This document shows positions 4,551-23,457 of a stretch of 32,000 bases of DNA, piece by piece. How positions within the stretch are numbered: position 1 is the stretch's first letter; every line of letters starts with the position of its first letter. Source of the DNA: Telmatocola sphagniphila (lineage in GTDB: Bacteria > Planctomycetota > Planctomycetia > Gemmatales > Gemmataceae); NCBI RefSeq assembly GCF_018398935.1, contig NZ_CP074694.1:4530001-4562000 (forward strand). Direction: 5' to 3'. The translations under genes and the position numbers were made by a program. The notes beneath the pieces are model-generated. The model did no database searches. It saw nothing but the letters and a program-made list of their open reading frames with translations, and had not been told where the DNA came from.

Positions 4551-7500
4551 CTACCGGATCTGCGTCGCATAGCGGATGACGTCCGTATACGGCGAGGCCT
4601 GGTAGTTGAAGTACTTGGTCTGCGGCCCCGGGTTGGCGTAGAAGGAGGGCTCGACAGCGCCAATTACCGGGAAGACTGCGATGCTCTCGCCCGGGTAGTG
4701 TTTATTCTTAGTACGAATCGTCAACCGGTAAGGAGCGGGTTGAGGAGTGGAACTGGCATTATTTGTTGCGCCAAGACCCGACATGAATCCTTGCACAACA
4801 TTAGTAGCTCCATTATAGCCGATCGTAATAAACTCTTCGTTGGGCGTTCCCGCTCCAATCAAGATGGAGGTTCCTTGTGTAGTGCTGGTTTGCGACTGGA
4901 TTTTCCAGGGTCGGCCATCGTACTCGCCCGAGAGCGATTTGATGACATAATGATTACCACTGAAAGCATCAACTAATGGCATCAAATCGGTATTCCCGGA
5001 GATGGTTGAGGGATAGACGAAGCCCGGAATGCTACAGGTGTACTGGAAGTAGGACGTACCATTCACACTGGTTGGCGTATAGGGATCCTGGTTTGGGGAT
5101 GGGTCGGGTTGAAAATCGAACAGCACCGGCGCCGAGGCCTGTGGCTGAGAGCCGGCTACGGCTGAGTAGGTAGCTAAGTTCGAACGGTCGACGACCGAGA
5201 AGAATTTGTGTCGAACGACTGTTCCATCTTTTGAGCCGAGCTCTTTACCCAATCGGGGACGATTCGAAGGTGTATAAGGCCCATCGTTTTCGACCTCGAA
5301 GTAGCCGACTGTACACCAGACCGCGAAGGTATTACTGCGGGTGGTAAGGTTATTCATGGCCTTAATCAGCATTTCATGGTTCATATACGGATGGAATTGA
5401 TCGGTGATAAACAACGGTTGGTTACCGACCGGGTTTGGTGCATTCGTATTGACCTGAAGAGGGTTGCCCCACAGGAATGTATTTTGAATACCGCTATTAT
5501 TGCGATAATAGAAGTTTGTGGCATTCGTATGGGCAGTATAAATCGGAAGCCCTGGCGGCATGAAAGCCCGGTCATTTCGAGAGAAATTACCCGGCTGGAT
5601 ATTGGTGGAAGACTCACCGGGCCAACGATATTTCTGTATAGCAGTCCAGGCATTCGTAACATCGCTATTCACACCGTTCGCATCGATATAAGTGAACGTG
5701 TTAGCATCACTGCCGGACACAACTGCTTTTAGGATCGTCGGGTCGTAAATTGTGTTGATATTCACTTTGCCTGGCGTGCGTCCGCCATAGGGAATACCGC
5801 GAACGCGAGTCTTTGTCTCCAGCAACGCAAGCGCCCGGAACAGGCGAACTTGATCGGCCACGAAAAAGTTCGTGTCGTTTGGATCCGGTTGGACGGTACC
5901 CGTGGGATCATTGAAAGCCGGTTCCATATCGGTCCAAGGTGCCAAGTGCATCATTCTCTGCGATCGCATAGCGGCGGCAGTACCGGCCGCAGTCGATTTA
6001 CTATTTACTCGACTCGGTTGATACGTGTTGTTACTCCAGTGGAATTGATTTGTAACGCGATGATTCGAGTAAGCGCACACCGTCAACAATTCCGCTGGGG
6101 AGATCAACGGCCGATCCAGGTGAGTATACCAATCGTAATTTGCGGACAGATTCTGGTTCCCATTCTTCAGGGTTAAAGAAGGAGACAGATACCTTTGCGG
6201 GGGAGGATAGTTCACCTGTCCAAAGGTCGAGAGAATATTTGTTATTGCCGGTGGCTGGGTTATGGTGGGACTTACTCCCGCCGGTTTAGCCGCTGGCTGC
6301 GGAGTTTGCTGAACGACTGAAGCTATGGCAGTCGGGGCAGCTACCGTTGTCGCTGCCGAAATCGTTGGCGTCCTCGAGTTTGTAGCATCCTTCGCAGGAG
6401 CATCGGCATCGGCAACCAGATTCAATAACTGGCTACTCGGTTGATAGCCATCGAGTGGCTGGCGTCGACCTATCGAAAACTGTTGGGCAATGGCTGTATT
6501 CGGGATTCTCGTGAAATTTCCCTTGCCGGCACCAACAACTCGATTATCGAAAATGGAATTACCGGCCTGTACGAAATAATCGACGGTTACCCAGGAATTA
6601 AGAATCGGATTGACGCCGTTCGGTGCGGGATCCTTAGTCGGATTTGTCGGATCGAAATTATATTGCGGCGCCATCGCCATCCGTTGTAAGACGAATATAT
6701 AGCGGTTGTTCGCTCCGTTGGTGGTAAGTGCTTGTGTATCCGCGGTAGTAGCGGTCTGATCCATATTAGGTGGATAAGGAGTAGTTCCCCCCAAAACTGA
6801 ACTTTTCACCTGAACATTCGCTTTTCCAGCACCCATAGTGGGATCGTTAGACATATTGGGAATTAATGTATTGGCCTGTACACCCGCCGCCGTAGCGTAC
6901 TTGCCCGTGGTAGTATCCGTTTGAGCATCGGGTGGACCGATAACAATATAGTTCTGCTGATCGCTCGTTTGGTCCAGGGGTTCGGCATTGGCAACTACCG
7001 GATTTGCCTGGCTCAAGGCCTTGAAAATTTGCTTGAACGGAATGATTTTGACGGTTGATGCAAAGCCATTATTCAAAGCTCCGGTTTGGAGATTGAAAAA
7101 GGTTGCATCGAAAACCCTGTGGTCGTAATTTTCGAGAAGACTGACGTAGCCATCCAGCGCCAAATCGGAAGTCGCCTGAATCTTTAAAATTCGATAATAG
7201 GTAAAATCTGCTTTGAAGATCGATTGAAGATTTGGCTGGCCATTTTGCGAAACGGGTGCCGTAACCGGACACTTCAGTTCAATCCAGTGCTGGTAAATAT
7301 ACGGCTGAGGTAATGTGGCTTTCCACTGCGTCGTATCATTGGGAGCTTGCGGATTAGCTAGAAAGGGATCCGACGGATCATTTCTAATGTGTGAATAAAC
7401 TTCGTTAATGACCAGACGCGGGTTTTCCACCCCGAAAATAATTTCCGTTCCACTGACAGCGTCTGTGGCCAAACTGGGGGGTGCCCCAGGATTCGCATCG

Positions 7501-10103
7501 TAAGCAAAGGTCAGATAATTGGGATCAAACGGATTCAAATTTCGCCAGTTATAGACAGTCATCACATCATCCTGATCGATGTAATCGACGATGTTTACTG
7601 CCAACTGGGCTAAATAACGCAGAGAGTTCTGCACCTGGGCCGTATTATAATTGGGTATTGATTGATCTCTTAGTAGTACCTTGCCAGTACCATAGTTAGC
7701 GGTCGTAGGTGAAGGCGGATTCGTCCAGATACCAGTCGCCACAACCAGTCGCAGGAAAATGTCGCGGGCAAAGACTTGTCGCTCCTGCATGATCTGCGGA
7801 ATCAAAGTCTGAGCAATGCCATTCGTGCCCGATGGGAATGGCGTCAATTTTCGATTCAAATCCAGCGCACTGATAATATTCGAGTTGCCCGCACCCCAAA
7901 GCTTCGCCTGTACCGCCGACGCTTTGTTCAGAGCACTATAATCCCCGCTTACCGGGTTATAAAGAGTGGGGAAGGCAAACGGTGATAGTGCCCCATCTGG
8001 CGTTGTGATGTTCTGGTTAGCGATCTTGAATTGAGTGATCAAACCGCGAGCCAGCGGGTCCACATTATTTCCATAAGTCGTAAACATGTGGTCGGTGCGG
8101 CCACTAGCCCACTCGTAGCCGGTGATACCCGGAGTGATCAAATCATTGCTGGTCGGGGTGATTCGGAAACGAGAGGCTGCGGCGGTCGGCAAATTGTAGA
8201 GGGAGTTTGGAGCCAGATTGGCGAGATCCGAACGCAGGATGGCATCATTTTCCCCTTTGAGCTTGTAATTCAACCAGCGCACGTCAGAAAAATTGTGCCC
8301 ATGATTCAATGACCAATTTTGATCGGTCTGGAAGTTCTGCGGTGGCACGCGGAGAGTCAGATAGGGGTTGTGCAAACTCGGATGATAAATCAATTCTGTC
8401 GGGTTCACAAAGGTAGGTTGCACGGCGTTATCGGTAATGTTCCACGCTTGGAACTGCGTGGCAGGGAAAGTCGGCGCAGTCATCTTCGGGAGACCCACAA
8501 CATTAGCGGGGAGTGCGATTTTCTGCGCGGAAGGCACAGGTATTAGTGAGTTTCCACTTTTTTGCAAATCGAGCGCATCATAATCTGCATTGGAATAGAA
8601 GATTGCTTTCGGGAAATCGGAAGAGTAATTCCCAGCGAATGTACTCAAATCGAATCCATACGGTTTGCCGATAGCAACATTGCTCAGTTGACCTTGATAA
8701 ATCGGTGAGCCGCCTGGATCATTACCCACACTGTTAAACTGAGGGGTCTGTGCCATGCTCTGCACCATTCGCCCGGCCGTGTAGGCGGTCGGGGGTCGAG
8801 TGATGACATTAAAAGCATCGGCTCGGACGAGTGCGGAATTCGGATCTCCCAATGCTGTGTTGGGATCGATATCCCCCATCGCGATAGCCAGATTTTGCTC
8901 CCAAGGGCCCCACCCCTGATTCGAGCGCTGAAGGAAGTCAGGATTACCGTTTTTCGCACTGGCCTGAATCATACTGCCAGCGATATTCGAGTTGATACGG
9001 CCATCGAGATCGGTAATGAACATCGCGACCAACGGCTTGTAGTTCTTCCCTCTCCAACGGCGAACCGGCAGATCGATATCCATCCAGAGGCTGTCGTTAC
9101 CGGGCCCCCCTTCCAGGTTCTGGACATCGCCCGTATACGATCCATCCGCGTTCATGGGAACCGGAGGGAAATTTTTATGGTAATAGTTCGTGGGGCGCAG
9201 AATGCGATATTGACCGCGAGGACCAGCTATTGGGTCGCCGCTTGTTCCCCAGAGTGGGTTGGAGGGGTGCAGAACTGGAAGAGTGTTGTTAGTCGGAGCA
9301 AAGCCGGTATAAGTGATGCCGTTTGCCTGTGTTTCAAAGTGCCAGGGGCGGAAGAAAGAAGGCATCACGACCTGAGGCGTTCCACTCGCTGTAGAAATCG
9401 CGCCTAAATACAAGTGGTTGGTATCGACTGCAGTATAAGGGGCATTTTTTGGCACGTAGATCGCATTGGCCGCAGAGCGGAGTGAATACTGGGCTTGATT
9501 ACCATTTTGTCCATTGGTGATCCATTCCGGATCACGCTGTGGGAAATAACCGTTTGGATTTGTGCCAAGATAATCCGCCGGATATGGAGAATCTGAGTAG
9601 TTGATGTAGTTGTAAGCCCGATCGGAAGCCGTAGCACCTTGCTGGGAAGCATTGGCGTCCGTTATTGAACCAAAAGTCACACCTTCTGGATATCCCAGAC
9701 CGGCGAAGGGTTGGCCATTGATTGCATTGTAGTTGTACCCATACATATCCCGGGCGAGGCTCCAGCCGCGCAAAGCGTTGTAGCGGCCGACATCGTCTTC
9801 CACGTCGTAAATCAGATCGCCAAGCGTCTTATTGAAAATCTCATTCGGGATCGGCGGCGCATCATCGCTCGAACCCCGGTTGGTGATATTCAGACCCGGA
9901 GCCACTCCGGTATGTCCGCCAAACTGCGTTTCGCGGGCCTGCCGGGCCGAATTAGCGGCCGATTCCGCATAGAGCACGAAGGTAATGCCGACCACCGCGA
10001 ACAGCGCCAGCATGGTCACTACGACCAGCAGAATAATTCCGCGACGGCGGGTCGATAGTTTTTTCGTTTGCAGCAACATGGTGAGGGTCTCCCTCTGAAA
10101 CAT
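4551..10103 (-). CDS. Giant (1850 aa) GspK/PilX-like minor pseudopilin, putative filament-tip protein
   Basis: It is the last gene of the G-H-I-J-K series. The N-terminus RRRGIILLVVVTMLALFAVVGITFVLYAES is a GspK-style anchor (RG + hydrophobic helix, with no Phe+1 or Glu+5). GKVNINTIYDPTILKAV (KVNINT = 5751..5768) matches the GspK (I/V)N(I/V)NT motif. LTTRSNTFAVWCTVGYFEV...RHKFFSVVDRS resembles the GspK C-terminal strands. The rest is Asn/Thr/Pro/Tyr/Gln-rich with few charged residues. An alternative start is ATG 10079, preceded by GGGAGA with an 8-nt spacer. Confidence 0.75.
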   Translation of the reverse strand: MFQRETLTMLLQTKKLSTRRRGIILLVVVTMLALFAVVGITFVLYAESAANSARQARETQFGGHTGVAPGLNITNRGSSDDAPPIPNEIFNKTLGDLIYDVEDDVGRYNALRGWSLARDMYGYNYNAINGQPFAGLGYPEGVTFGSITDANASQQGATASDRAYNYINYSDSPYPADYLGTNPNGYFPQRDPEWITNGQNGNQAQYSLRSAANAIYVPKNAPYTAVDTNHLYLGAISTASGTPQVVMPSFFRPWHFETQANGITYTGFAPTNNTLPVLHPSNPLWGTSGDPIAGPRGQYRILRPTNYYHKNFPPVPMNADGSYTGDVQNLEGGPGNDSLWMDIDLPVRRWRGKNYKPLVAMFITDLDGRINSNIAGSMIQASAKNGNPDFLQRSNQGWGPWEQNLAIAMGDIDPNTALGDPNSALVRADAFNVITRPPTAYTAGRMVQSMAQTPQFNSVGNDPGGSPIYQGQLSNVAIGKPYGFDLSTFAGNYSSDFPKAIFYSNADYDALDLQKSGNSLIPVPSAQKIALPANVVGLPKMTAPTFPATQFQAWNITDNAVQPTFVNPTELIYHPSLHNPYLTLRVPPQNFQTDQNWSLNHGHNFSDVRWLNYKLKGENDAILRSDLANLAPNSLYNLPTAAASRFRITPTSNDLITPGITGYEWASGRTDHMFTTYGNNVDPLARGLITQFKIANQNITTPDGALSPFAFPTLYNPVSGDYSALNKASAVQAKLWGAGNSNIISALDLNRKLTPFPSGTNGIAQTLIPQIMQERQVFARDIFLRLVVATGIWTNPPSPTTANYGTGKVLLRDQSIPNYNTAQVQNSLRYLAQLAVNIVDYIDQDDVMTVYNWRNLNPFDPNYLTFAYDANPGAPPSLATDAVSGTEIIFGVENPRLVINEVYSHIRNDPSDPFLANPQAPNDTTQWKATLPQPYIYQHWIELKCPVTAPVSQNGQPNLQSIFKADFTYYRILKIQATSDLALDGYVSLLENYDHRVFDATFFNLQTGALNNGFASTVKIIPFKQIFKALSQANPVVANAEPLDQTSDQQNYIVIGPPDAQTDTTTGKYATAAGVQANTLIPNMSNDPTMGAGKANVQVKSSVLGGTTPYPPNMDQTATTADTQALTTNGANNRYIFVLQRMAMAPQYNFDPTNPTKDPAPNGVNPILNSWVTVDYFVQAGNSIFDNRVVGAGKGNFTRIPNTAIAQQFSIGRRQPLDGYQPSSQLLNLVADADAPAKDATNSRTPTISAATTVAAPTAIASVVQQTPQPAAKPAGVSPTITQPPAITNILSTFGQVNYPPPQRYLSPSLTLKNGNQNLSANYDWYTHLDRPLISPAELLTVCAYSNHRVTNQFHWSNNTYQPSRVNSKSTAAGTAAAMRSQRMMHLAPWTDMEPAFNDPTGTVQPDPNDTNFFVADQVRLFRALALLETKTRVRGIPYGGRTPGKVNINTIYDPTILKAVVSGSDANTFTYIDANGVNSDVTNAWTAIQKYRWPGESSTNIQPGNFSRNDRAFMPPGLPIYTAHTNATNFYYRNNSGIQNTFLWGNPLQVNTNAPNPVGNQPLFITDQFHPYMNHEMLIKAMNNLTTRSNTFAVWCTVGYFEVENDGPYTPSNRPRLGKELGSKDGTVVRHKFFSVVDRSNLATYSAVAGSQPQASAPVLFDFQPDPSPNQDPYTPTSVNGTSYFQYTCSIPGFVYPSTISGNTDLMPLVDAFSGNHYVIKSLSGEYDGRPWKIQSQTSTTQGTSILIGAGTPNEEFITIGYNGATNVVQGFMSGLGATNNASSTPQPAPYRLTIRTKNKHYPGESIAVFPVIGAVEPSFYANPGPQTKYFNYQASPYTDVIRYATQIR

Positions 10104-10158: not shown

Positions 10159-11832
10159 TTAGACGTCTTGAATAATCGTCACTTGCCGGGCCAGCCCGGC
10201 CTTGGCATCCCACACCCGCAGCTTGATCTGCAAGGCGCGAATGCGAATTCGCATGGGCGGCCGATCTTCCCAGGGAACCAGGCAACCCGTCGGCACGTTG
10301 TTGGCAGGGTTCGTCTGAAGATCCGTATAAGGATTGCCTGGAACATACGGGGTCGGACTAGGCGGCTCGATGCTGTCGTTATCCCAGTTCACATATTTAA
10401 GATTTGGGAACTGGGATGCATTGCCATACCGCGTCCAGGTATCGAAGGTGTAAGCGAACTGCATACCTTCAGGACGATAACGATTCGATGGAAAATTTAT
10501 GTCCAATGGATTGGGAGGAATCGAAGGTGGATAATTGAAGGATGACGGGTTGGGATTAGTATTAAGTCCTGCATTAGTAACTTGTGTATAAGGAGGCGGA
10601 TAAGGAAGCGATACCGCAATTGCAGGATAAGGCGGAGTGGGTGGAGGCGCAAAAGAAGAATTTAGATTTCCTGGATGGTAACCGTAGTTGAAACCGTTGT
10701 TGTTCCGGCGTGGCAAATAAGTGTAGCGCGGTAGTTCTAAAAACGGCCAGTTTATAGTCGCGTCCGCTGGATCGCTAATCCCGCCGTTCGAGCGATTAAA
10801 TTGATTTGATCCAACAGGGCCTGTTAGAGGATCTGTGCCGTCTTGCAAAATTGTATGCAGAGGCGTAACTGCGCCGTTTAATGGATTCACTACCGAAGGA
10901 ATATCGTATATAGCACGAATTTCGAACGAAAGGACCTCTTGCAACAAAGGTTGTGCTAGTGGCTGGTTTGTATTGGGATCTAAAAGATTTGGGATCTGTC
11001 TAACTAGATTCGGCTGCGTGGCACCCGAATAATTGCGAGATCCGGCAGGTGTAGTCACCACCGAGTAGAGCGGCATAGTCACATCAGCTGGCGAATTATA
11101 ATAACCAGTAACTCCACCATTGGCTAATAACGTCTGGCTGATTTCCGGGGCCGAGTAAGCGGACGAGGTCGAAGAATCAATGACCTGTCCCGACACCGGG
11201 CTCGGGGCCAAAGTGCTGACACGGCGGTAGAGCGTATAAAGCTGCTCCTGACCGTAGGCGCCCTGAATTGTCTGGTTGGGATTGGGGTAAAGAAAATAGC
11301 TCACTTCCCCCCATTTGCTGGCGAACAGACTCGAGGTGCCCAACTCATAAGAACTAAGACTGGTGAGGTTCGAGCCCGGAAGACCGGGCATATTCGCCTG
11401 AAAGGCATCTGCGACCGTGGTGCCGCTGCGCTTGACGGTCATGGCCATCTGATGATTGACGGCGCGGGTAACCGGGACATTATCGCTATCGAGACCTTCG
11501 CGGATGACACGCGGGGCGTAGATGCGGAAGTAGCCCATTTCTGGCGGGGCCCAGCCGATTTTATCAAGTCGTTGGTCGGACAGATAAGGCCCCGACAATC
11601 CCGGCTGAAAACTGCCATCGAAGTGCTGCGAAGCGACATCCCGGCGGATCACGGCCGAGGCGATTCGCAATTTTTCGGCCATCTGACCGGTGGAGCGGAG
11701 GATGCGGAAGGCGTCGATACCCGATTGGAAAGCGCCGGTGAGGATGAGCATGATGAACATGCACAAAGCCACCGAGACCAGCATTTCCACCAGGGTGAAA
11801 CCCCGTCGACCACGTTTAAGGTACTGCTTCAT
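10159..11832 (-). CDS. GspJ/PilW-like minor pseudopilin, expanded (557 aa)
   Basis: The prepilin signal is MKQYLKRGRRG|FTLVEMLVSVALCMFIMLIL with Glu at +5. It is followed by the PilW/GspJ-like stretch AFRILRSTGQMAEKLRIASAVIRRDV. The C-terminus IRIRALQIKLRVWD...RQVTIIQDV is typical of GspJ ends. A Pro/Tyr/Asn-rich insert lies between them. Confidence 0.75.
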   Translation of the reverse strand: MKQYLKRGRRGFTLVEMLVSVALCMFIMLILTGAFQSGIDAFRILRSTGQMAEKLRIASAVIRRDVASQHFDGSFQPGLSGPYLSDQRLDKIGWAPPEMGYFRIYAPRVIREGLDSDNVPVTRAVNHQMAMTVKRSGTTVADAFQANMPGLPGSNLTSLSSYELGTSSLFASKWGEVSYFLYPNPNQTIQGAYGQEQLYTLYRRVSTLAPSPVSGQVIDSSTSSAYSAPEISQTLLANGGVTGYYNSPADVTMPLYSVVTTPAGSRNYSGATQPNLVRQIPNLLDPNTNQPLAQPLLQEVLSFEIRAIYDIPSVVNPLNGAVTPLHTILQDGTDPLTGPVGSNQFNRSNGGISDPADATINWPFLELPRYTYLPRRNNNGFNYGYHPGNLNSSFAPPPTPPYPAIAVSLPYPPPYTQVTNAGLNTNPNPSSFNYPPSIPPNPLDINFPSNRYRPEGMQFAYTFDTWTRYGNASQFPNLKYVNWDNDSIEPPSPTPYVPGNPYTDLQTNPANNVPTGCLVPWEDRPPMRIRIRALQIKLRVWDAKAGLARQVTIIQDV

Positions 11833-13300: not shown

Positions 13301-13343
13301 GATCGAACTCGTATTAATTACCGTTCTTCATCGCGGTATAAAA

Positions 13344-17016: not shown

Positions 17017-18255
17017 CTATTTGCTCAAACCTTCCAGCAGCTTAATCAAAGGTAAGAAGAGCGAGATCACAATCGCCCCGATGATAAAACCTAGCACGAC
17101 AATCATCAACGGTTCGATCAAGCTGATCAAACTTTTCACGGCCGTGTCGACTTCTTCATCGTAGAAGTCGGCAATCTTATAGAGCATGGAGTCGAGGTCG
17201 CCGGTCTCCTCGCCGACCTCCACCATGTTGCAAACCATATCGTCGACGAGCCGGCTTTCCTTCAGGGGTTCGGCAATCGTATCCCCTTCCCGGATCGACT
17301 CGTAAACGCGAGTAAACATTCGCTCGAACACGGCGTTATTGGCCGTGTCGCGGACAATACTCAACGCCTCCAATATCGGCACACCGGAGGCCACGAGGGT
17401 GCCCAGGGTGCGCATTGTCCGCGCTACAATCGTTTTCTCCACGAGGTTCCCGACGACGGGCACCCAGAGCAGCATCCTATCTAAGGCATATGTACCGGCC
17501 CTCGATAGTCGTATGAGTTTTATGAGAAGATAGAGCCCCATGGGGAACATCGGAATCGTCCACCAGTAATCGGCGAACCAGTTCGAGGTATCGATGAGGA
17601 TCTGCGTGGGCGCGGGCAACTTCATGTTGAATTCTTCGAAGATCTTTTTGAACTTCGGAATGATCGAGATCATGATGAACGTCAAGATACCGACGGCGAC
17701 CATGATAACCACGGCCGGGTAAACCATGGCGCCGATGATCTTGCGCTTGAGGCTCTGAGCCTTTTCCTTGAAGTCGGCCAGACGCTGCAAGATGATTTCG
17801 AGGGCACCGCCGGCCTCTCCGGCACGCACCATATTCACATAGAGACGGTCGAAGCAGCGGGGGTGCTTGGCCATGGCTTCGGACAGGGTGCTGCCCGATT
17901 CCACATCGTCCACCACGTCGATGAGGTTATTTTTCAGGGTGCTGGGCTTCATCTGCCGTTCGAGAATTCGCAGGCTGCGGAGCACGGGCAGACCGGCGTC
18001 CTGAAGCGTACTGAACTGGCGGGTGAAGGTACAAAGCATCTTGTTGGAGACGCCGCCGATGGTGAAGGTCTTGCGGGATTTACCCGTCTTCTTTTTCTTC
18101 TTCGTCTTCGTGTTCACGCCCATGGCGGTGAGCTTCGTGACGAAGTAGCCCATCTGCTTGATTTTCTGTTGCGCCTCTTCTTCGTTCAGCGCATCGATTT
18201 CGTCCTTGACTTCGGCACCGGCCGTGTCCAGAGCTTCGAATTTATATGTTGGCAT
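17017..18255 (-). CDS. pilC: Type IV filament platform protein (PilC/GspF family)
   Basis: The product is 412 aa. The N-terminus MPTYKFEALDTAGAEVKDEIDALNEEEAQQKIKQMGYFV is a typical GspF/PilC start. Two T2SSF-type repeats are present (...LSEAMAKHPRCFDRLYVNMVRAGEAGGAL... and ...IAEPLKESRLVDDMVCNMVEVGEETGDL...), along with three hydrophobic segments. RBS GGTGGAG. Confidence 0.9.
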   Translation of the reverse strand: MPTYKFEALDTAGAEVKDEIDALNEEEAQQKIKQMGYFVTKLTAMGVNTKTKKKKKTGKSRKTFTIGGVSNKMLCTFTRQFSTLQDAGLPVLRSLRILERQMKPSTLKNNLIDVVDDVESGSTLSEAMAKHPRCFDRLYVNMVRAGEAGGALEIILQRLADFKEKAQSLKRKIIGAMVYPAVVIMVAVGILTFIMISIIPKFKKIFEEFNMKLPAPTQILIDTSNWFADYWWTIPMFPMGLYLLIKLIRLSRAGTYALDRMLLWVPVVGNLVEKTIVARTMRTLGTLVASGVPILEALSIVRDTANNAVFERMFTRVYESIREGDTIAEPLKESRLVDDMVCNMVEVGEETGDLDSMLYKIADFYDEEVDTAVKSLISLIEPLMIVVLGFIIGAIVISLFLPLIKLLEGLSK

Positions 18256-18412
18256 ACCGTAAACTCCACCCCTGCGAATGGCTTAGCACTGGACGGGAAC
18301 GAGGGAGACAAACAATCTTATCCGCGTGCAAGCGAGTCCACATGTCCAAACGGAACAGAATCCCGTGCGAGCGGGCGGTCCTGTTCCCCCCAATATACGA
18401 TTTATCCGGCAA

Positions 18413-20374
18413 TCAACCTTCGTCTTCGAGCACCGTTTCGCGGACGATTTCTTCCACGTTACTGATGCCGTTGAACAGCATATCGATACCCCGTTCGCGA
18501 AGACCGCGAGCCCCCCGGGCGCGCACGGCGTTTCGTAGAGCATCGGTCGATGCCCCGCGCGAAACCATATCGCGGAGGTCATCGTTCATAATCAACATTT
18601 CATAAATCCCGGTTCGGCCCTTGAACCCGAGATTGTTGCACTTGTCGCAACCTTCCCCAAAGTAGAATTGGCGGCCCTTGAGATCTTCAGCCTTCATATT
18701 CAATTCCATCAGCTGTTCCCGGCTCGGATCGTAGCCGGTTTTACAGAACTGACAGATTTTTCGCACCAGACGCTGAGCCAGAATCGCCTCGACGGTGGCC
18801 GTGATCAAAAACGGCTCCACGCCCATGTCGCGCAGACGGGTGATCGTACTCGGTGAATCATTAGTATGCAAGGTACTGAACACCATGTGTCCAGTGAGGC
18901 TGGCCTGAATGGCAATTTGGGCAGTTTCCAGGTCTCGAATTTCGCCGACGAGGATTCGGTCGGGGTCCTGCCGTAAAATTGCCCGCAGCGCGGAGGCGAA
19001 CGTCAGGTCGATTTCCGCATTAATCGGGCACTGCACGATGCCGTCGATTTCATACTCGACCGGATCTTCGGTCGTGATGATTTTATCGGTTATTTCGTTC
19101 AGCTCGTTTAACGCGGAATAGAGCGTCGTCGTCTTACCGGCCCCGGTCGGCCCGGTCACCAGACAGATGCCGTTGGGCTTGCGGATGACGCTGCGGAAAT
19201 CGGCCAGGATATCTTCGGGCAGACCGATACGATCCAGTTCCAGACCGACCCGGGTACGGTCCAGAACCCGGATGACCACGCTCTCGCCAAACATGGTCGG
19301 CAGAACCGAAACGCGCATGTCGATGGGGTTGCCGCCGATGTTCAATTCGATGCGGCCGTCCTGCGGCAGACGGCGTTCGGCGATATCCAGGTTGGACATA
19401 ACCTTGATACGCGAGGAGATCGCCATTGCCAGGTGGCGCGGCGGCGGCACCATCTCATAGAGCACACCGTCGCAACGATAACGCATCTTGTATTCGTCTT
19501 CGAACGGTTCGAAATGGACGTCCGAGGCGTGGTCGCGAATGGCCATCAGCAGCACCATGTTGATGAGCTTGCGGACGGGGGCCGTATTGGCGATTTCGTC
19601 GATTTCGTCGAGGTCGATCGAGGTTTCGCGCTTGATCTTGTTGAAGCGATCGTCCACTTCGAGACTGTGAATCAGATCGGTGATCGATTCTTCCTTGGTG
19701 CCGCTGTAGGCCTTCTGGATGGCCGCTTCGATCTTCTTGACCGGCGCCAGACAGGCAATCACTGTTGGAATACCGAGGAAGTTCCGCACATCGTCGATGG
19801 CCTGCAGATTGTTCGGATCGGCCAGGACCACCGTCAGCGTGTCGTTATCGAACGAGATGGGCAGCATCTTATAGAGATTGGCCATGGTTTCCTGAACCAT
19901 GCCGAGGGCTTTGGCTTCGGGCTTGGTCTCGTCTAGATTGACGATCCGCATGCCCGATTGCTCGGCCAACGCCTGCAGCAACTGATCTTCGTTGATCAGA
20001 CCGCGTTCGACGGCGATCAGTTCCAGAGGGGAATCGGTGCTGCGGGCCTGTTCGAGCAGATCTTCCATCTGCAGTTCGTCGATGAACCCCAGGTCGACGA
20101 GAATCTGACCCAGCTTGCGGGTGCCCGAGGAGGGGGCGGTCTTTTTCGGGGCCGCTTTACCTTCGGCTTTTTTGACGACGGGCTTGGCCGCCGCCGGTTT
20201 CGCTTCGCCCGCTTTGGCCACAGGTGCCGCACCCGGCTTGGCCACGGGTTTGGCTCCGGGAGCGGCCGGCTTAGCCCCAGGGGCAGCTGTCGGCTTGACC
20301 ATCGGTTTGGGCGCCGTGGGCTTCGTGGGATCGGGCTTCTTTCCGTCGTTCGATTTATTGGAAGGGGTGGTCAT
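18413..20374 (-). CDS. pilB: PilB/GspE-family assembly ATPase (paralogue 2) with a Pro/Ala/Lys-rich N-terminal extension
   Basis: Motifs seen are Walker A GPTGAGKTTT, Walker B ILVGEIRD, His box GHMVFSTLHTND and a tetracysteine CQFCK...CDKCNNLGFKGRTGIYE. A T2SSE_N/MshEN-like domain follows about 85 aa of KPTAPKPMVKPTAAPGAKPAAPGAKPVAKPGAAP. Confidence 0.9.
   Translation of the reverse strand: MTTPSNKSNDGKKPDPTKPTAPKPMVKPTAAPGAKPAAPGAKPVAKPGAAPVAKAGEAKPAAAKPVVKKAEGKAAPKKTAPSSGTRKLGQILVDLGFIDELQMEDLLEQARSTDSPLELIAVERGLINEDQLLQALAEQSGMRIVNLDETKPEAKALGMVQETMANLYKMLPISFDNDTLTVVLADPNNLQAIDDVRNFLGIPTVIACLAPVKKIEAAIQKAYSGTKEESITDLIHSLEVDDRFNKIKRETSIDLDEIDEIANTAPVRKLINMVLLMAIRDHASDVHFEPFEDEYKMRYRCDGVLYEMVPPPRHLAMAISSRIKVMSNLDIAERRLPQDGRIELNIGGNPIDMRVSVLPTMFGESVVIRVLDRTRVGLELDRIGLPEDILADFRSVIRKPNGICLVTGPTGAGKTTTLYSALNELNEITDKIITTEDPVEYEIDGIVQCPINAEIDLTFASALRAILRQDPDRILVGEIRDLETAQIAIQASLTGHMVFSTLHTNDSPSTITRLRDMGVEPFLITATVEAILAQRLVRKICQFCKTGYDPSREQLMELNMKAEDLKGRQFYFGEGCDKCNNLGFKGRTGIYEMLIMNDDLRDMVSRGASTDALRNAVRARGARGLRERGIDMLFNGISNVEEIVRETVLEDEG
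20123..20344 (-). repeat. Low-complexity Pro/Ala/Lys-coding tract (N-terminus of PilB paralogue 2)
   Basis: Degenerate (A/P)(A/G)AKP(V/A) units are visible in translation. The DNA shows reiterated ggctt/ggcc/cggg motifs. Confidence 0.7.
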
Positions 20375-20496
20375 TTTTTCATCTATCCTGTTTCGGCTAC
20401 CCGGTCTTCACCTAGCGAGGGCTATCGTTTTCTGATCATTCCTTTTTTTCGGGGCGAGGTCAGCGCCCCTCAAGTCGAAGCAGCCACGGCGGCTTT

Positions 20497-21699
20497 CTAC
20501 GAGCGGCCGTAGTTCAGTTTCTTCTTGGGAGGCGGTCCGCCCTTGCGGGGCTTGTCATCATCGTCGTCCTCATCGTCCATATCGTCGTCGTCATCCTCAT
20601 CGTCTTCGTACTCGTCGTCTTCCAGAAGGCCCTTCTCGGCGGCGGCGATTTTGGCGGCCAGGTCGGCCGGTTTCTTCGAACGCAGCAGCACTTCTTCCTT
20701 ATCGCAGAGGCCAGTCTTCCAGAGATTGAAGAGACTGTCGTCGAGGAGGAACATCCCGTACTTACGACCGGTCTGGATACTCGAGTCGATTCGATACACT
20801 TTGTTTTCGCGAATCAGGTTCTGGATAGCATCGGTCACCACCATCATTTCGTAGGCGGCGATCACCCCTTCGGGCTTCTTCGGCAGAAGCGCCTGGGACA
20901 ACACCCCCATCAGAGCGGTCGACAGCTGCGTGCGAACCTGATCCTGCTGGTCTTTCGGGAACACGTCGATAATTCGGTTGATCGTCGAAGCGGCCCCGGA
21001 GGTGTGCAGCGTACCGAACACGACGTGGCCGGTTTCGGCGGCTTCGATGGCCGCGTGAATCGTCGCCAAGTCTCGCATTTCACCGACGAGGATGACGTCC
21101 GGATCCATACGCAAGGCCCGGCGAATCCCTTCCTTGAAGTCGGGGACGTCCACCCCGATTTCCCGCTGGTTCACGGTGCACTTTTTGTGCTTGTGGTAGT
21201 ATTCGATCGGGTCTTCGAGGGTGATGATATGTCGGTCGTAGTTGTCGTTGATGAAGTTGGTCATCGACGCCAGCGAAGTGGTCTTTCCCGAACCGGTCGG
21301 CCCGGTGACCAGCAACAGACCGCGCGGCCGGACGATCAGCGATCGAATGGCGTCGGGCATCATCAGCTGTTCGAAGGTGAGGAACTGGCTGGGAATGCGG
21401 CGGAGCACCATGCCGATGGTGCCGCGCTGTTTGAAAATCGCACAGCGGAAGCGGTAGCCGTCGGTGAATTCGATGGCGAAGTCCGATCCCCCTTTTTCCT
21501 GCAGTTCCTGCTGGCAGCGATCGGGCGTGATGGACTTCATCAGCGCGGTCGTATCGTCGTTATCGAGAACTTTGGTTTCCAGCTTGCGCATGCGCCCATT
21601 GTGCCGGACGACGGGAGGCTGTCCGACGGATATGTGCAAGTCGCTGGCTTTGAGCTGGATGACGGTCGCCAGCAATTTATCGATCATTACCGTGGCCAC
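20497..21699 (-). CDS. pilT: PilT retraction ATPase with an atypical acidic C-terminal tail
   Basis: Motifs seen are IDKLLATVIQLKASDLHISVGQPP, Walker A GPTGSGKTTS, ILVGEMRD, GHVVFGTLHT and the PilT-specific AIQNLIRENKVYRIDSSIQTG. The start is either GTG 21699 (AGGAGA, 4-nt spacer) or ATG 21687. About 55 residues extend beyond the canonical PilT end. Confidence 0.92.
   Translation of the reverse strand: MATVMIDKLLATVIQLKASDLHISVGQPPVVRHNGRMRKLETKVLDNDDTTALMKSITPDRCQQELQEKGGSDFAIEFTDGYRFRCAIFKQRGTIGMVLRRIPSQFLTFEQLMMPDAIRSLIVRPRGLLLVTGPTGSGKTTSLASMTNFINDNYDRHIITLEDPIEYYHKHKKCTVNQREIGVDVPDFKEGIRRALRMDPDVILVGEMRDLATIHAAIEAAETGHVVFGTLHTSGAASTINRIIDVFPKDQQDQVRTQLSTALMGVLSQALLPKKPEGVIAAYEMMVVTDAIQNLIRENKVYRIDSSIQTGRKYGMFLLDDSLFNLWKTGLCDKEEVLLRSKKPADLAAKIAAAEKGLLEDDEYEDDEDDDDDMDDEDDDDDKPRKGGPPPKKKLNYGRS
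20554..20622 (-). repeat. GAY/GAR codon run encoding EDDEYEDDEDDDDDMDDEDDDDD
   Basis: A run of gtc/atc/ctc triplets on the plus strand spans 23 codons, 21 of them Asp or Glu. It is followed by a basic KPRKGGPPPKKK tail. Confidence 0.9.
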
Positions 21700-21747
21700 G
21701 GGATCTCCTGAATAACCTCAATGAGCGGGCTTGGCTGACAACTACTG

Positions 21748-23457
21748 CTACTCGTGATCGGAATGGCAGATACTCAAAATTTCTTCGACGGTGGTGACGC
21801 CTCGGAGACACTTCAGCACACCGTCTTCCAGAAGGTTGCGCATCCCGGTTTCGCGAGCGACGCGACGGATTTGCTGGGCAGGGGCCTGTGCGAAGGTCAT
21901 TTCTCGAATCTTCGCGTTCAGGGCCATCATTTCGTAGATACCGGTTCGGCCGCGGAAGCCGCACTGGTTGCAGTTGCTGCAGCCGCGGCCCCGCATGAAG
22001 TTCGCTCCCTTGAGCTGTTCGGGCTTGATCCCGGCCGAGAGAATTTCGGCTTCGGGAGGCACGTAAGCGACCTTGCACTTACTGCAGTTCACGCGGGCCA
22101 GACGCTGGGCCATAATCGCGATCACCGAAGAGGCGATCAAGAACGGCGGCACGCCGATGTCGGCCAGCCGGGTAATGGCCGAGGGGGCATCGTTGGTGTG
22201 CAGCGTGGAGAACACCAAGTGACCCGTCAGTGAAGCCTGCACGGCGATTTCCGCCGTTTCCTTATCGCGAATTTCCCCCACCAGAATGATGTTGGGGGCC
22301 TGTCGCAACATGGCGCGGATAATTCGCTGGAAATCGAGGCCGATGTTGTGCCGGACTTCCACCTGATTAATCCCCGGCAGGTAGTATTCCACCGGGTCTT
22401 CCGCCGTGATGATTTTGCGGTCGGGCCGGTTGAGTTCATTCAACGCGGCATAGAGCGTCGTCGTTTTGCCCGAACCGGTCGGTCCGGTCACCAGAAAGAT
22501 GCCGTTGGGGCGTTTGATGATCTTCTGGAAGCGCAGATAGTCGTCTTCGCCGAAGCCCATATCCCGGATGTTCACCTGGATGTTGCCGCGGTCGAGAATA
22601 CGCATCACGCAGGACTGGCCGTGCACGGTCGGCAAGAAGCTAACGCGAAGGTCGAAGTGCTTGCCCTGAATGGTCGTTTTGATCCGACCGTCCTGGGGCC
22701 GGCGCTTCTCGGCAATGTCGATATTGCCCATAATCTTCAAACGGCTGACCATAGCCGCCTGCAAACGACGGGGGATGGCATCGCGCTCGACGAGAATGCC
22801 GTCGATGCGATAGCGGATTCGGACGCGATCCGCAAACGGCTCGATGTGGATGTCGCTGGCCCGCTGGGCCACCGCTTCCGCGAGCATCATATTGCAGAGC
22901 CGGACCACCGGAGCGTCGGAATCGCCGGCATCGGAGTGAGCCGCCCGGGCCGCTTCGGTCTGGGTGAATTCGATCTGGGTGTCGGTGAATTCGGAAAGCA
23001 TGGAGTCCATCGACTCCGTTTCCGTTTGGCCGTAGTGCCGGTTGATCGATTCGCGAATTTGCTCGTGATCCGCCAGCACCGGGGTGACGTCTTTATTCAG
23101 AATGAAGGTCAGCTTCTGAATGGTATCGTAGTTGGTGGGGTCGGAGGTGATGAGCTTGAGAACGTTTCCTTCGAGTTGCAGTGGCAGAACGACGTTTTCT
23201 CGGGCCACGGATTCCGGTACCAATTCGATGACTGACTTGGCGATTTCCACGCCTTCGAGATCCACGTATTGCAGGCCATGGAATTCGGCCATGGCCGCCA
23301 TGACTTCTTTTTGAGTCAGGTAGTTCGATTTGACCAGTGCTTCCTGGATCTTGGTACCGGTCGAAGAGCTCAGGCGCAGTGCTTCTTCTAACTGATCGGG
23401 GCCAATGAGGCGATTGCGGATGAGAATATCGGTAAAGTCGCCGCGTGCCTTGGCCAT
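21748..23457 (-). CDS. pilB: PilB/GspE-family assembly ATPase (paralogue 1), first gene of the operon
   Basis: The start is reassigned to ATG 23457, preceded by AAGGAGA with a 9-nt spacer, giving 569 aa. Motifs seen are an N-terminal T2SSE_N-like domain, Walker A GPTGSGKTTT, ILVGEIRD, GHLVFSTLHTND and CSKCK...CSNCNQCGFRGRTGIYE. Confidence 0.9.
   Translation of the reverse strand: MAKARGDFTDILIRNRLIGPDQLEEALRLSSSTGTKIQEALVKSNYLTQKEVMAAMAEFHGLQYVDLEGVEIAKSVIELVPESVARENVVLPLQLEGNVLKLITSDPTNYDTIQKLTFILNKDVTPVLADHEQIRESINRHYGQTETESMDSMLSEFTDTQIEFTQTEAARAAHSDAGDSDAPVVRLCNMMLAEAVAQRASDIHIEPFADRVRIRYRIDGILVERDAIPRRLQAAMVSRLKIMGNIDIAEKRRPQDGRIKTTIQGKHFDLRVSFLPTVHGQSCVMRILDRGNIQVNIRDMGFGEDDYLRFQKIIKRPNGIFLVTGPTGSGKTTTLYAALNELNRPDRKIITAEDPVEYYLPGINQVEVRHNIGLDFQRIIRAMLRQAPNIILVGEIRDKETAEIAVQASLTGHLVFSTLHTNDAPSAITRLADIGVPPFLIASSVIAIMAQRLARVNCSKCKVAYVPPEAEILSAGIKPEQLKGANFMRGRGCSNCNQCGFRGRTGIYEMMALNAKIREMTFAQAPAQQIRRVARETGMRNLLEDGVLKCLRGVTTVEEILSICHSDHE

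What the first reader, a model, noticed from the sequence alone, without database searches (positions are those of the whole stretch)
4551..23457. Type IV filament operon in which every pseudopilin is oversized and no secretin or alignment genes are in view
Seen in sequence:
- Ten co-directional minus-strand genes have gaps of 3-211 nt and are bounded by one strong terminator at 4481-4539.
- The order is PilB-like, PilT, PilB-like, PilC/GspF, two GspG-like, then GspH-, GspI-, GspJ- and GspK-like genes.
- Five products carry a class III signal ((G/A)|(F/L)(T/S)L(V/I/T)E) plus family-specific alpha1 motifs.
- Their lengths are 374, 400, 391, 418, 557 and 1850 aa.

Established knowledge: canonical GspG, H, I, J and K are roughly 150, 170-190, 120-130, 200-210 and 330 aa, and T4P FimU/PilV/PilW/PilX are similar. 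So each member here is about 2-5.5 times larger. The window holds no secretin, GspC/L/M, PilMNOP or prepilin peptidase.

Inference: this is a distinct filament class whose subunits carry large Asn/Thr/Pro/Tyr-rich globular domains. In a planctomycete it could be a surface fibre or adhesion/uptake organelle rather than a classical T2SS piston.
Basis: partly seen in the sequence, partly recalled or inferred. Interest (0 to 1): 0.88.

Follow-up and report, generated by a model that had tools for sequence, protein, structure and literature searches.

The report
Planctomycete pilus operon with giant pilins
This is a real gene cluster, conserved across the planctomycete order Gemmatales, for a retractable type IV pilus-like filament whose six pilin-like subunits are 2 to 5.6 times the usual size, and it is a candidate for the unusually thick surface fibres of these bacteria.

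Summary
The window is from Telmatocola sphagniphila (Gemmataceae). Ten co-directional minus-strand genes encode PilB-like, PilT, PilB-like, PilC, two GspG-like pilins, then H-, I-, J- and K-like pilins of 374, 399, 391, 418, 557 and 1842-1850 aa. A bidirectional terminator closes the cluster.

The sizes are not artefacts. NCBI's gene calls are identical. The order PilT-PilB-PilC-G-G-H-I-J-K recurs in about 45 Gemmatales/Isosphaerales loci with similarly large proteins.

Only the N-terminal helix (about 20-70 residues) resembles known pilins. Each family best matches its E. coli Gsp namesake, but below every curated cut-off. The globular parts have no Pfam, NCBIfam or PDB sequence match. Confident AlphaFold models of G1 and of a K-like paralogue core have no significant Foldseek match in PDB.

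PilT argues for a retractile pilus, not a T2SS piston. The missing secretin, PilD and PilMNO mean little, because a sister genus is reported to carry them elsewhere in its genome.

The K-like family is large (3,682 clusters at 50% identity). It has extra stand-alone paralogues and a conserved extreme C-terminal peptide.

Verdict: a new, uncharacterised variant of a type IV filament. Function (adhesion or polymer capture) is inferred only.

The parts
21748..23457 (-). PilB/GspE-family extension ATPase 1 (569 aa from the ATG at 23457). It has an MshEN domain and a c-di-GMP-binding motif at the N-terminus.
   Evidence: Pfam T2SSE 4.6e-132 and MshEN 1.8e-22. NCBIfam PilB 633 bits (cut-off 675.65), GspE 590 bits (cut-off 630.25), c-di-GMP motif 38.2 bits (cut-off 38). 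An AAGGAG-like ribosome-binding site lies before the ATG.
20497..21699 (-). PilT retraction ATPase (400 aa) with an unusual acidic C-terminal tail
   Evidence: NCBIfam TIGR01420 pilT_fam 432 bits against a cut-off of 319.1. Tail sequence seen.
18413..20374 (-). PilB/GspE-family extension ATPase 2 (653 aa). It has a Pro/Ala/Lys-rich N-terminal extension, an MshEN domain and a c-di-GMP motif.
   Evidence: Pfam T2SSE 3.4e-135 and MshEN 8.5e-15. NCBIfam PilB 618 bits, GspE 608.5 bits, c-di-GMP motif 41.5 bits.
17017..18255 (-). PilC/GspF inner-membrane platform protein (412 aa)
   Evidence: Pfam T2SSF 7.3e-66. NCBIfam PilC 393 bits and GspF 390 bits, both below their cut-offs.
15809..16933 (-). 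G1: GspG-like candidate major pilin, 374 aa (signal A|FTLVE). The C-terminus keeps a GspG-like 'SAGxDG ... DDxxNF' motif, and roughly 200 extra residues lie between alpha1 and that motif.
   Evidence: N_methyl 25.8 bits. hhalign against E. coli GspG gives probability 98%, E 2e-13, over alpha1 only. 4 of 50 homologues weakly match Pfam T2SSG. AF2 model: pLDDT 76, pTM 0.81, alpha1 at residues 16-66 plus an alpha/beta head. No significant PDB fold match. NCBI calls it QVL30775.1, 'type II secretion system protein'.
14523..15722 (-). G2: second GspG-like pilin, 399 aa (signal A|FTLIE). The C-terminus reads 'SAGPDK ... DDI'.
   Evidence: N_methyl 20.9 bits against a cut-off of 21.2. hhalign against GspG gives 96.8%. 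NCBI calls it QVL30774.1, 399 aa.
13344..14519 (-). H-like minor pilin, 391 aa (signal G|FTLVE)
   Evidence: N_methyl 29.4 bits. NCBIfam GspH 1e-8 over residues 10-73. hhalign against GspH gives 95.7% over alpha1, near-tied with GspG.
12044..13300 (-). I/PilV-like minor pilin, 418 aa (signal A|LSLTE)
   Evidence: N_methyl 21.5 bits. The PilV model TIGR02523 matches the N-terminus in 38 of 41 family members, and Verru_Chthon B matches in 14. The best E. coli match is GspI at 77.7%.
10159..11832 (-). J/PilW-like minor pilin, 557 aa (signal G|FTLVE)
   Evidence: N_methyl 28.6 bits. Of 45 family members, 18 match Verru_Chthon C, 8 match GspJ and 11 match HpsC. The best E. coli match is GspJ at 87.5%.
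4551..10103 (-). K-like giant tip-subunit candidate, 1850 aa (1842 aa as annotated). The N-terminus reads RRRG|IILLV with no Glu5. There are three conserved modules (about residues 1-400, 750-950 and 1300-1650), variable inserts between them, and a conserved extreme C-terminal peptide NPGPQ...Y..V(I/V)(R/P)Y.
   Evidence: No Pfam or NCBIfam family. 125 homologues of 1086-1936 aa. Module map; consensus; C-terminal peptide. The best E. coli match is GspK, but weak: 40% against a single sequence, 60% against a GspK profile, driven mainly by the N-terminus. AF2 model of residues 1-1200 of the paralogue P0044: pLDDT 80.5, pTM 0.85. No significant PDB fold match.
4493..4530 (.). Bidirectional intrinsic terminator closing the operon
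   Evidence: 17-bp stem with 10 G-C pairs. It has a T-run on the + strand and TTTTATTT on the - strand.

Best explanation
The cluster encodes the cytoplasmic and inner-membrane core plus the full pilin set of a retractile, T4aP-like type IV filament that is specific to Gemmatales and Isosphaerales.

SHOWN
- Two PilB-family ATPases, each with an N-terminal MshEN c-di-GMP-binding domain.
- A PilT ATPase and a PilC platform protein.
- Five proteins with canonical class III signals and Glu5.
- A sixth protein with a GspK/PilX-type signal that lacks Glu5.
- Gene order and large sizes are conserved.

INFERRED
- A prepilin peptidase encoded elsewhere cleaves the signals.
- G1 and/or G2 polymerise through their canonical alpha1 helices into the filament shaft.
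- Their heads of roughly 300 residues are about twice the normal mass and should give a thicker fibre.
- H, I, J and K form the tip/initiation complex, as GspH-I-J-K or FimU-PilV-W-X do. Here that complex totals about 3,200 residues.
- K is the distal, ligend-contacting subunit: a GspK-like scaffold expanded by three lineage-specific insertions.
- K's conserved extreme C-terminal peptide may complete its own pilin-like beta-sheet in cis, as described for GspK and CpaL (PMC13533445).
- PilB extends the fibre and PilT retracts it. The likely use is adhesion or capture of polymers.
- Stand-alone K-like paralogues in many genomes could act as alternative tips.
For: - Domain calls for the motors, the platform and the N_methyl signals.
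- PilT scores above its curated cut-off.
- The order PilT-PilB-PilC-G1-G2-H-I-J-K recurs in about 45 of 84 related loci. Median sizes are 304, 313, 339, 324 and 421 aa, with K at about 1300-1800 aa.
- Gene calls are identical in NCBI's annotation.
- In an hhalign cross-matrix, each family's best hit is its E. coli Gsp namesake.
- G1 and G2 keep a GspG-like C-terminal motif. Compare ('ISAGxDGxFG...GxDDxxNF') with E. coli GspG ('LLSAGPDGEMGTEDDITNW').
- The K-like consensus carries five motifs in the same order as the GspK consensus. K-like: RRG+hydrophobic, DLDGRxNLN, VDYIDxDD, ELLHV, GKxNINT, SNxFAV. GspK: QRGVALL, DxQxCFNLN, DWIDxD, SELR, LxINxNT, SxxF.
- The AF2 models are confident, with a long N-terminal helix and C-terminal beta-strands.
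- The six pilin-like proteins have an extracellular-type composition.
- The K-like C-terminal peptide is conserved.
- K-like paralogues occur outside the operon.
- 12-nm pili-like fibres that bind dextran have been reported on Gemmata and Planctopirus (PMC5394234).
- The largest major pilins in solved T4aP structures are 161-208 aa (PMC11046646).
Against: - Similarity to known pilins is confined to alpha1. All class-specific scores are below curated cut-offs.
- The K-to-GspK link is weak: hhalign probability 40-60%, no T2SSK Pfam hit even at E<=10, and 0 PDB profile hits.
- The only structural hint is non-significant: XcpK, 9a1f_T, E=1.3.
- Nothing shows that G1 or G2 is the major subunit, or that any filament is made.
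- The K-like model is of an orphan paralogue truncated before the conserved C-terminal peptide, so the beta-strand-in-cis idea is untested.
- Secretin, PilD and PilMNOP could not be looked for in this genome.
- G1, G2 and I have Ala rather than Gly at position -1. This might reduce processing by the prepilin peptidase.
Confidence: 0.6

Rival explanations
1. The cluster is a divergent type II secretion system. G1/G2 would form a short periplasmic pseudopilus capped by H-I-J-K, which pushes folded exoproteins (for example glycoside hydrolases) through a secretin encoded elsewhere.
For: - G1 and G2 best match GspG and keep a GspG-type C-terminal motif.
- 4 of 50 G1 homologues weakly match Pfam T2SSG.
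- NCBI annotates them as 'type II secretion system protein'.
- The order G-H-I-J-K is the T2SS order.
- The ATPases score almost as well on the GspE model as on the PilB model.
Against: - A bona fide PilT retraction ATPase is embedded and conserved in the operon. By established knowledge, T2SSs lack PilT.
- No GspC/L/M genes are present.
- GspE, GspF and GspG all score below their equivalog cut-offs.
- A tip complex of about 3,200 residues with a 1,850-aa cap is hard to reconcile with a piston working inside a secretin vestibule (inference).
Confidence: 0.15
2. The cluster makes a filament, but G1 and G2 are low-abundance or accessory pilins. The true major pilin, of ordinary size, is encoded elsewhere, so the shaft is a normal fibre of about 6 nm and only the tip is oversized.
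For: - In many T4aP systems the major pilin and the minor-pilin operon lie at separate loci (established knowledge).
- Gemmataceae genomes encode around 100 prepilin-type proteins (PMC8567305).
- No expression data are available here.
Against: - G1 and G2 sit directly after pilC, in the position of the major (pseudo)pilin, in about 45 loci.
- They are the only members with GspG-type features.
- Most other planctomycete prepilin proteins are of the DUF1559 type, which G1 is not.
Confidence: 0.15
3. No filament is formed. The prepilin-type signal is used only to anchor large periplasmic or surface proteins in the membrane and then release them, as is suspected for the expanded DUF1559 family. 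The ATPases would serve as an export motor for these proteins.
For: - Planctomycetes have a very large family of prepilin-signal proteins of unknown role (PMC8567305).
- The globular parts resemble no known pilin head.
Against: - The full stoichiometric set is strictly conserved in order: two G, then H, I, J and K, the last with a GspK-type signal lacking Glu5. This is the signature of a polymerising system.
- alpha1 is long and canonical in the G1 model, residues 16-66.
- PilT implies depolymerisation of a polymer.
Confidence: 0.05

Closest known systems
Type IVa pilus systems (PilB-PilT-PilC with major pilin PilA and minor pilins FimU-PilV-PilW-PilX plus the PilY1 adhesin; e.g. Pseudomonas, Myxococcus)
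   Same: - PilB-type extension ATPase, PilT retraction ATPase and PilC platform.
- Pilins with a class III signal and Glu5.
- An H/I/J/K-type set, with the K-type member lacking Glu5.
- The I-like family matches the PilV model at its N-terminus.
   Different: - Two PilB paralogues.
- Candidate major pilins of 250-400 aa, against 111-208 aa in solved T4aP structures (PMC11046646).
- Minor pilins 2-3 times larger than usual.
- No separate PilY1. Instead there is a K-type protein of 1300-1850 aa.
- PilB scores below its equivalog cut-off.
- PilMNOPQ are not clustered with the operon.
Type II secretion system pseudopilus, GspG-H-I-J-K (E. coli K-12 gsp operon, locus L086)
   Same: - Gene order G, H, I, J, K after the F-type platform gene.
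- Each family's best hhalign hit is its Gsp namesake.
- GspG-like C-terminal motif in G1 and G2.
- The GspK motifs appear in the same order in K.
   Different: - Sizes are 2.3-5.6 times larger.
- PilT is present.
- GspC/L/M/D/O are absent from the cluster.
- All Gsp equivalog cut-offs are missed by wide margins for the pilins.
- There is no T2SSK domain hit.
'Verru_Chthon cassette' proteins A-D (NCBIfam TIGR02600/02598/02599/02596), a computationally defined pilin-like cassette of Verrucomicrobia. As far as I know it is uncharacterised, and a full-text search for the name returned nothing.
   Same: - Same superphylum (PVC).
- Same architecture: D is H-like, B is I-like, C is an oversized J-like protein (361 positions) and A is a giant K-position protein (1296 positions).
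- Weak N-terminal hits of H, I and J to D, B and C.
- UniRef labels K 'Verru_Chthon cassette protein A'.
   Different: - All scores are far below the family cut-offs. For example, the best K-like hit is 14.4 bits against 332.3.
- The window protein itself does not hit TIGR02600 even at E<=10.
- The Gemmatales H and I proteins are about twice the D and B model lengths.
Large tip proteins that complete a PilK-type sheet: TadG/CpaL (about 600 aa), MshQ (about 1200 aa) and PilC/PilY1 (PMC13533445)
   Same: A very large protein sits at the K/Y1 position of the minor-pilin operon. A short, conserved extreme C-terminal peptide follows a variable region, as in CpaL and PilY1, where that peptide supplies the last beta-strand.
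   Different: - No sequence or fold similarity was demonstrated.
- The beta-strand role of the C-terminal peptide is untested here.
- K has its own GspK-type N-terminal helix, like CpaL and unlike PilY1.
Modular type IV pilins (Streptococcus sanguinis PilB and PilC, PMC8179133; titles and abstracts only)
   Same: A pilin module is extended by extra globular modules that give the filament its binding functions.
   Different: In that system a single extra module is grafted onto minor pilins of a monoderm bacterium. Here every subunit is enlarged, including the candidate major pilins, and the extra sequence lies partly inside the pilin fold: between alpha1 and the C-terminal motif in G1, and between the GspK-type motifs in K.

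Membership tests
Type IV filament superfamily | PilB/GspE-family hexameric assembly ATPase | tested here: met
   Pfam T2SSE E=4.6e-132 and 3.4e-135
Type IV filament superfamily | PilC/GspF polytopic platform protein | tested here: met
   Pfam T2SSF E=7.3e-66, two domains
Type IV filament superfamily | Pilins with a class III signal peptide, a hydrophobic alpha1 and Glu5 | tested here: met
   N_methyl found in five proteins; four are above the gathering score and G2 scores 20.9 against 21.2. Motifs read directly. The G1 model has alpha1 at residues 16-66.
Type IV filament superfamily | Prepilin peptidase (PilD/GspO) | not testable with these tools
   None was found in the window ORFs scanned, and the rest of the genome could not be searched. 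It is reported elsewhere in the genome of Limnoglobus roseus, which carries the same operon (PMC7397252; L026).
Type IVa pilus (T4aP) | PilT-family retraction ATPase | tested here: met
   TIGR01420 432 bits against a cut-off of 319.1. It is conserved in the operon.
Type IVa pilus (T4aP) | PilB equivalog score (TIGR02538) | tested here: not met
   633 and 618 bits against a cut-off of 675.65
Type IVa pilus (T4aP) | PilMNOP alignment complex and PilQ secretin | not testable with these tools
   Absent from the window ORFs scanned. They are reported in the L. roseus genome.
Type II secretion system | GspE, GspF and GspG equivalog scores | tested here: not met
   GspE 590 and 608.5 bits against 630.25. 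GspF 390 against 424. GspG 30.6 and 22.4 against 88.85.
Type II secretion system | GspC/L/M assembly platform and GspD encoded with the pseudopilins; no retraction ATPase | tested here: not met
   None of these is in the cluster, and PilT is present. Compare the E. coli gsp operon.
GspK/PilX-type minor pilin | N-terminal signal with Gly at -1, a hydrophobic helix and no Glu5 | tested here: met
   The window protein reads RRRG|IILLVVV. The family consensus is RRGxILxVVLALL, against the GspK consensus QRGVALLxVLL.
GspK/PilX-type minor pilin | T2SSK domains (PF21687/PF03934), or profile or fold similarity to GspK | tested here: inconclusive
   - No Pfam hit at E<=10.
- 0 PDB profile hits.
- hhalign probability 40-60%, dominated by alpha1, and 18-22% for internal modules.
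- Foldseek XcpK hit at E=1.3.
- Colinear motifs seen by eye.
Verru_Chthon cassette (TIGR02596/02598/02599/02600) | Scores above the NCBIfam cut-offs for A, B, C and D | tested here: not met
   - D 22 bits against 70.
- B 18.7 against 51.4.
- C 14.4 against 256.5.
- A has no hit for the window protein, and 14.4 against 332.3 for P0044.
Planctomycete DUF1559 (SBP_bac_10) prepilin-type proteins | SBP_bac_10 domain after the N_methyl signal | tested here: not met
   No SBP_bac_10 hit in any of the six proteins. 1 of 50 G1 homologues matches at E=0.042. hhalign of the G1 profile against the window's own DUF1559 protein gives 33% over 37 columns.

The most novel reading that the evidence does not exclude
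These operons may encode the 12-nm 'pili-like fibres' that emerge from the large crateriform structures of Planctomycetes and bind dextran. The molecular identity of those fibres and the uptake mechanism are still described as unknown (PMC5394234; PMC12673574).

On this reading:
- The shaft is a type IV filament built from pilins of 300-400 aa, the largest known. This would explain a diameter about twice that of ordinary T4P.
- The tip is a complex of roughly 340 kDa. Its 1300-1850-aa K-type subunit, exchangeable with the stand-alone paralogues, is the polymer receptor.
- PilT-driven retraction reels bound macromolecules into the enlarged periplasm.
Probability: 0.2. Interest if true: 0.85.

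Novelty: new variant of a known kind. Interest (0 to 1): 0.62.

Why it matters
Type IV filaments are normally built from small pilins. The largest major pilin in a solved T4aP structure is 208 aa, and adhesive function is usually delegated to a separate PilY1-type protein.

Here a whole bacterial order conserves a system in which every subunit is enlarged. The tip subunit is a family of more than 3,000 sequence clusters with no Pfam, NCBIfam or PDB relative. That would extend the known structural range of the superfamily, including filament diameter, tip mass and in-cis tip adhesins.

It also gives a concrete, genetically testable candidate for the thick, polysaccharide-binding fibres of Planctomycetes. 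Those fibres are central to the unresolved question of how these bacteria take up macromolecules.

Tried and rejected
ARTEFACT HYPOTHESIS (frameshifts or fused ORFs): rejected.
- NCBI's gene calls are identical.
- Homologues from more than 100 independent assemblies have similar lengths.

SEQUENCE SEARCHES FOR THE GLOBULAR PARTS: nothing beyond alpha1.
- Pfam and NCBIfam on all ten proteins, and on family members.
- Profile searches of PDB with all six families and with K module 3.

DUF1559 RELATIONSHIP OF G1: rejected.

FOLD COMPARISON
- Foldseek against PDB gave no hit with E<1 for G1 or for the K-like core.

PROFILE-PROFILE COMPARISON OF K WITH A GspK ALIGNMENT: only weak, and partly mis-registered.

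STRUCTURE MODEL OF K
- P0109 (1086 aa), considered as a full-length short K-like protein for modelling, lacks the C-terminal module.
- The model is therefore of residues 1-1200 of P0044. P0044 later proved to be an orphan paralogue.
- That fragment omits the conserved C-terminal peptide.

LITERATURE
- Searches found no description of this operon or of these protein families.
- The main text of Denise et al. 2019 does not mention Planctomycetes.

OTHER
- The 211-nt gap between the I and J genes holds no convincing small gene.
- The representative-library search lists only its best 150 of 3,682 hits. The distant tail, where GspK or verrucomicrobial relatives might appear, could not be inspected.

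Full report
ORIGIN AND ANATOMY

The 1850-aa ORF is 100% identical to KIH39_18190 of Telmatocola sphagniphila, on a 6.59-Mb contig. The organism belongs to Gemmataceae, Gemmatales, Planctomycetota. The flanks carry the planctomycete signature families DUF1559 and DUF1501.

On the minus strand, ten ORFs run from 23457 down to 4551. From their coordinates the gaps are 3-211 nt. The cluster ends at a 17-bp-stem hairpin at 4493-4530. An A-run precedes it and a T-run follows it, so it can terminate transcripts from either strand. A glyoxalase-like gene lies 298 nt upstream on the same strand. Beyond it sit tRNA-Leu and an integrase-led region of lower GC.

MACHINERY

Pfam and NCBIfam identify the following:
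- Two PilB/GspE-family ATPases. Each has an MshEN domain and an MshE-type c-di-GMP-binding motif at or just above its cut-off.
- A PilT-family ATPase, at 432 bits against a cut-off of 319.1.
- A PilC/GspF platform protein.

The PilB-like and PilC proteins score almost equally on the T4aP and T2SS equivalog models, and just below both. For PilB1 this is 633 bits against 675.65 and 590 against 630.25. For PilC it is 393 bits on the PilC model and 390 on the GspF model. The motor is therefore a conventional but unplaced member of the T4aP/T2SS branch. The embedded PilT is the feature that separates a retractile pilus from a T2SS (established knowledge).

THE SIX PILIN-LIKE PROTEINS

- Five carry a class III signal with Glu5: A|FTLVE, A|FTLIE, G|FTLVE, A|LSLTE and G|FTLVE. 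N_methyl scores 20.9-29.4 bits against a gathering score of 21.2.
- The sixth begins RRRG|IILLVVV, with no Glu5, which is the GspK/PilX pattern.
- NCBI's annotation gives exactly the same genes: 374, 399, 391, 418, 557 and 1842 aa.
- Canonical E. coli K-12 GspG/H/I/J/K are 145, 169, 125, 195 and 327 aa. These proteins are thus 2.3 to 5.6 times larger.
- They are rich in Asn, Thr, Pro and Tyr (25-31% against 16-18% in the cytoplasmic components) and poor in charged residues. This fits exported proteins.

CONSERVATION

- The K-like protein has 125 detectable homologues of 1086-1936 aa, named where known as Gemmataceae, Isosphaera or Planctomycetia.
- A profile scan of one genome per species found 246 encoding stretches. 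The 80 loci retained are almost all titled Gemmatales or unclassified Planctomycetota, with one Singulisphaera and a few apparently mislabelled bins.
- In about 45 loci with enough upstream DNA the order is PilT-PilB-PilC-G1-G2-H-I-J-K.
- Median lengths are 304, 313, 339, 324 and 421 aa for G1 to J, and about 1300-1800 aa for K.
- The oversizing is therefore ancestral to the clade, and Telmatocola sits at the upper end.
- About 20 further loci carry a K-like gene with no pilus genes nearby. Several genomes have two or three K-like copies.
- A profile of the K C-terminal module matches 3,682 clusters at 50% identity in a 1.84-billion-protein library, of which 3,117 have E<=1e-10. This is a large, unnamed family.

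WHAT THE PROTEINS RESEMBLE

Sequence profiles
- Family profiles searched against all PDB sequences match pilins only over alpha1. The K profile matches nothing.
- In an hhalign cross-matrix against the five E. coli pseudopilins, every family's best hit is its namesake:
  - G1 to GspG, 98%.
  - G2 to GspG, 96.8%.
  - H to GspH, 95.7%, near-tied with GspG.
  - I to GspI, 77.7%.
  - J to GspJ, 87.5%.
  - K to GspK, 40%.
- These alignments cover only 18-69 N-terminal columns.
- Member-by-member NCBIfam scans agree. PilV matches 38 of 41 I-like proteins. Verru_Chthon C, GspJ and HpsC match 18, 8 and 11 of 45 J-like proteins. All are below their cut-offs.

Motifs
- G1 and G2 keep a GspG-like C-terminal motif. 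The G1 consensus is 'ISAGxDGxFG...GxDDxxNF'. E. coli GspG reads 'LLSAGPDGEMGTEDDITNW'. They therefore look like GspG with about 200 residues inserted between alpha1 and the C-terminal sheet.
- G1 is not a DUF1559 protein.
- For K, the family consensus carries motifs in the same order as a GspK consensus built here:
  - RRG+hydrophobic against QRGVALL.
  - DLDGRxNLN against DxQxCFNLN.
  - VDYIDxDD against DWIDxD.
  - ELLHV against SELR.
  - GKxNINT against LxINxNT.
  - TTRSNxFAV against SxxF.
- The motifs are separated by conserved and variable inserts.
- Profile-profile scores stay weak at 18-60%. I rate K membership in the GspK family as inconclusive.

Structure models
- G1 with 50 homologues gave pLDDT 76 and pTM 0.81. 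It has a 50-residue alpha1 and a compact alpha/beta head.
- Residues 1-1200 of the K-like paralogue P0044 gave pLDDT 80.5 and pTM 0.85. The model shows:
  - an N-terminal helix;
  - two long helices around the DYID motif;
  - a beta-rich middle;
  - a helical region after the NINT motif;
  - three long C-terminal strands.
- Foldseek against PDB found nothing significant for either model. The only suggestive rows are V. vulnificus GspG (35 columns) and XcpK (E=1.3).

MECHANISM

The conserved set is two G, then H, I, J and a Glu5-less K, placed after PilB/PilT/PilC. This is the signature of a polymerising type IV filament with a minor-pilin initiation and tip complex.

I infer that G1 and/or G2 form the shaft, and that H-I-J-K form a tip of about 3,200 residues with K distal.

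The K family has a strongly conserved extreme C-terminus, (G)NPGPQxxFxxxxxxYxxVVPY. It follows a variable tail, and it is also present in the orphan paralogues. Ellison et al. show that in T4F tip complexes the last beta-strand of the PilK-type sheet is supplied either in trans or in cis: in trans by the C-terminus of PilC/PilY1, in cis by GspK or CpaL (PMC13533445). By analogy, K may be a PilK-type pilin fused to its own adhesin, closing its sheet with its last residues. This is inference only, because my model omitted that peptide.

The orphan paralogues could be alternative tips.

WHAT IT MIGHT BE FOR

- Boedeker et al. describe 12-nm pili-like fibres arising from the large crateriform structures of Planctopirus and Gemmata. 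These fibres bind gold-labelled dextran (PMC5394234).
- A 2025 review still calls the players unknown (PMC12673574).
- Solved T4aP structures use pilins of 111-161 aa, and the 'large' M. xanthus pilin has 208 aa (PMC11046646).
- A shaft of 300-370-aa pilins would plausibly be thicker.

This link is attractive but unproven. I give it about 0.2.

THE MISSING COMPONENTS

No secretin, PilD or PilMNOP was found in the flanking ORFs scanned. I could not scan the rest of the genome. The Limnoglobus roseus genome description lists PilD, PilQ and PilM/N/O (PMC7397252), and L. roseus carries this operon (L026). Absence from the window is therefore not evidence for a secretin-less machine.

NOVELTY

- Public annotation is generic: 'type II secretion system protein', 'prepilin-type ... 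domain-containing protein' and 'hypothetical protein'. UniRef labels K 'Verru_Chthon cassette protein A'.
- The verrucomicrobial Verru_Chthon cassette models (D 196, B 151, C 361 and A 1296 positions) are the nearest precedent for oversized J and K proteins. All scores here are far below their cut-offs.
- I found no paper describing the operon or these families.
- I class it as a new variant of a known kind: a conventional T4aP/T2SS-type motor driving an uncharacterised, uniformly enlarged pilin set.

Noticed in passing
window 24526-32000: tRNA-Leu(CAG) at 24526-24609 is followed directly by a tyrosine-recombinase integrase (24740-25987). A lower-GC stretch (44-51%) then runs to the window end. 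It holds a 724-aa protein with a C-terminal Vut_1 domain (26378-28552) and a GmrSD_N/DndB-like protein (29574-30620). This looks like an integrated island with defence-type genes next to the pilus operon.
   Followed up: partly
window 20497-21699 and 18413-20374: PilT ends in an acidic tail of about 55 aa (EDDEYEDDEDDDDDMDDEDDDDD...KKKLNYGRS). The second PilB-like ATPase starts with a Pro/Ala/Lys-rich extension of about 85 aa. Neither is typical of these ATPases.
   Followed up: no
window 21748-23457 and 18413-20374: Both PilB-like ATPases carry an MshEN domain and the MshE-type c-di-GMP-binding motif at or above its cut-off (38.2 and 41.5 bits against 38). This suggests that c-di-GMP controls extension.
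   Followed up: no
window 16933, 15722 and 13300 (N-termini of G1, G2 and I): The residue before the predicted prepilin cleavage site is Ala, not Gly, in three of the five Telmatocola pilins. The family consensus is Gly.
   Followed up: no
window 4551-4640 (C-terminus of K) and homologues P0004-P0119: The last 25 or so residues of the K-like family are conserved, (G)NPGPQxxFxxxxxxYxxVVPYxxxx, although the 100-200 residues before them are variable. The peptide is also present in orphan paralogues.
   Followed up: partly
loci L003, L009, L016, L019, L029, L041, L047, L061, L064, L067, L075, L081, L085: These are stand-alone K-like paralogues with no pilus genes within 10 kb, and some genomes have two or three K-like copies. 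L085 sits beside phage-tail 'Collar' domain genes and an 1880-aa NHL/TIG repeat protein.
   Followed up: partly
loci L001 (15545-16450) and L004 (14901-15842): An Asparaginase_2 gene lies just downstream of the K-like gene in two distant Gemmataceae genomes, but not in the window.
   Followed up: no
loci L011, L017, L056: Contigs that carry this planctomycete operon are titled 'uncultured Alcaligenaceae bacterium' in their public records. This is probably mis-binned or mislabelled metagenome bins.
   Followed up: no
window 35-850 and 1503-2786: A DUF1559 (SBP_bac_10) prepilin-type protein and a DUF1501 protein lie downstream of the operon on the + strand. These are typical expanded planctomycete families and are not part of the operon.
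   Followed up: partly
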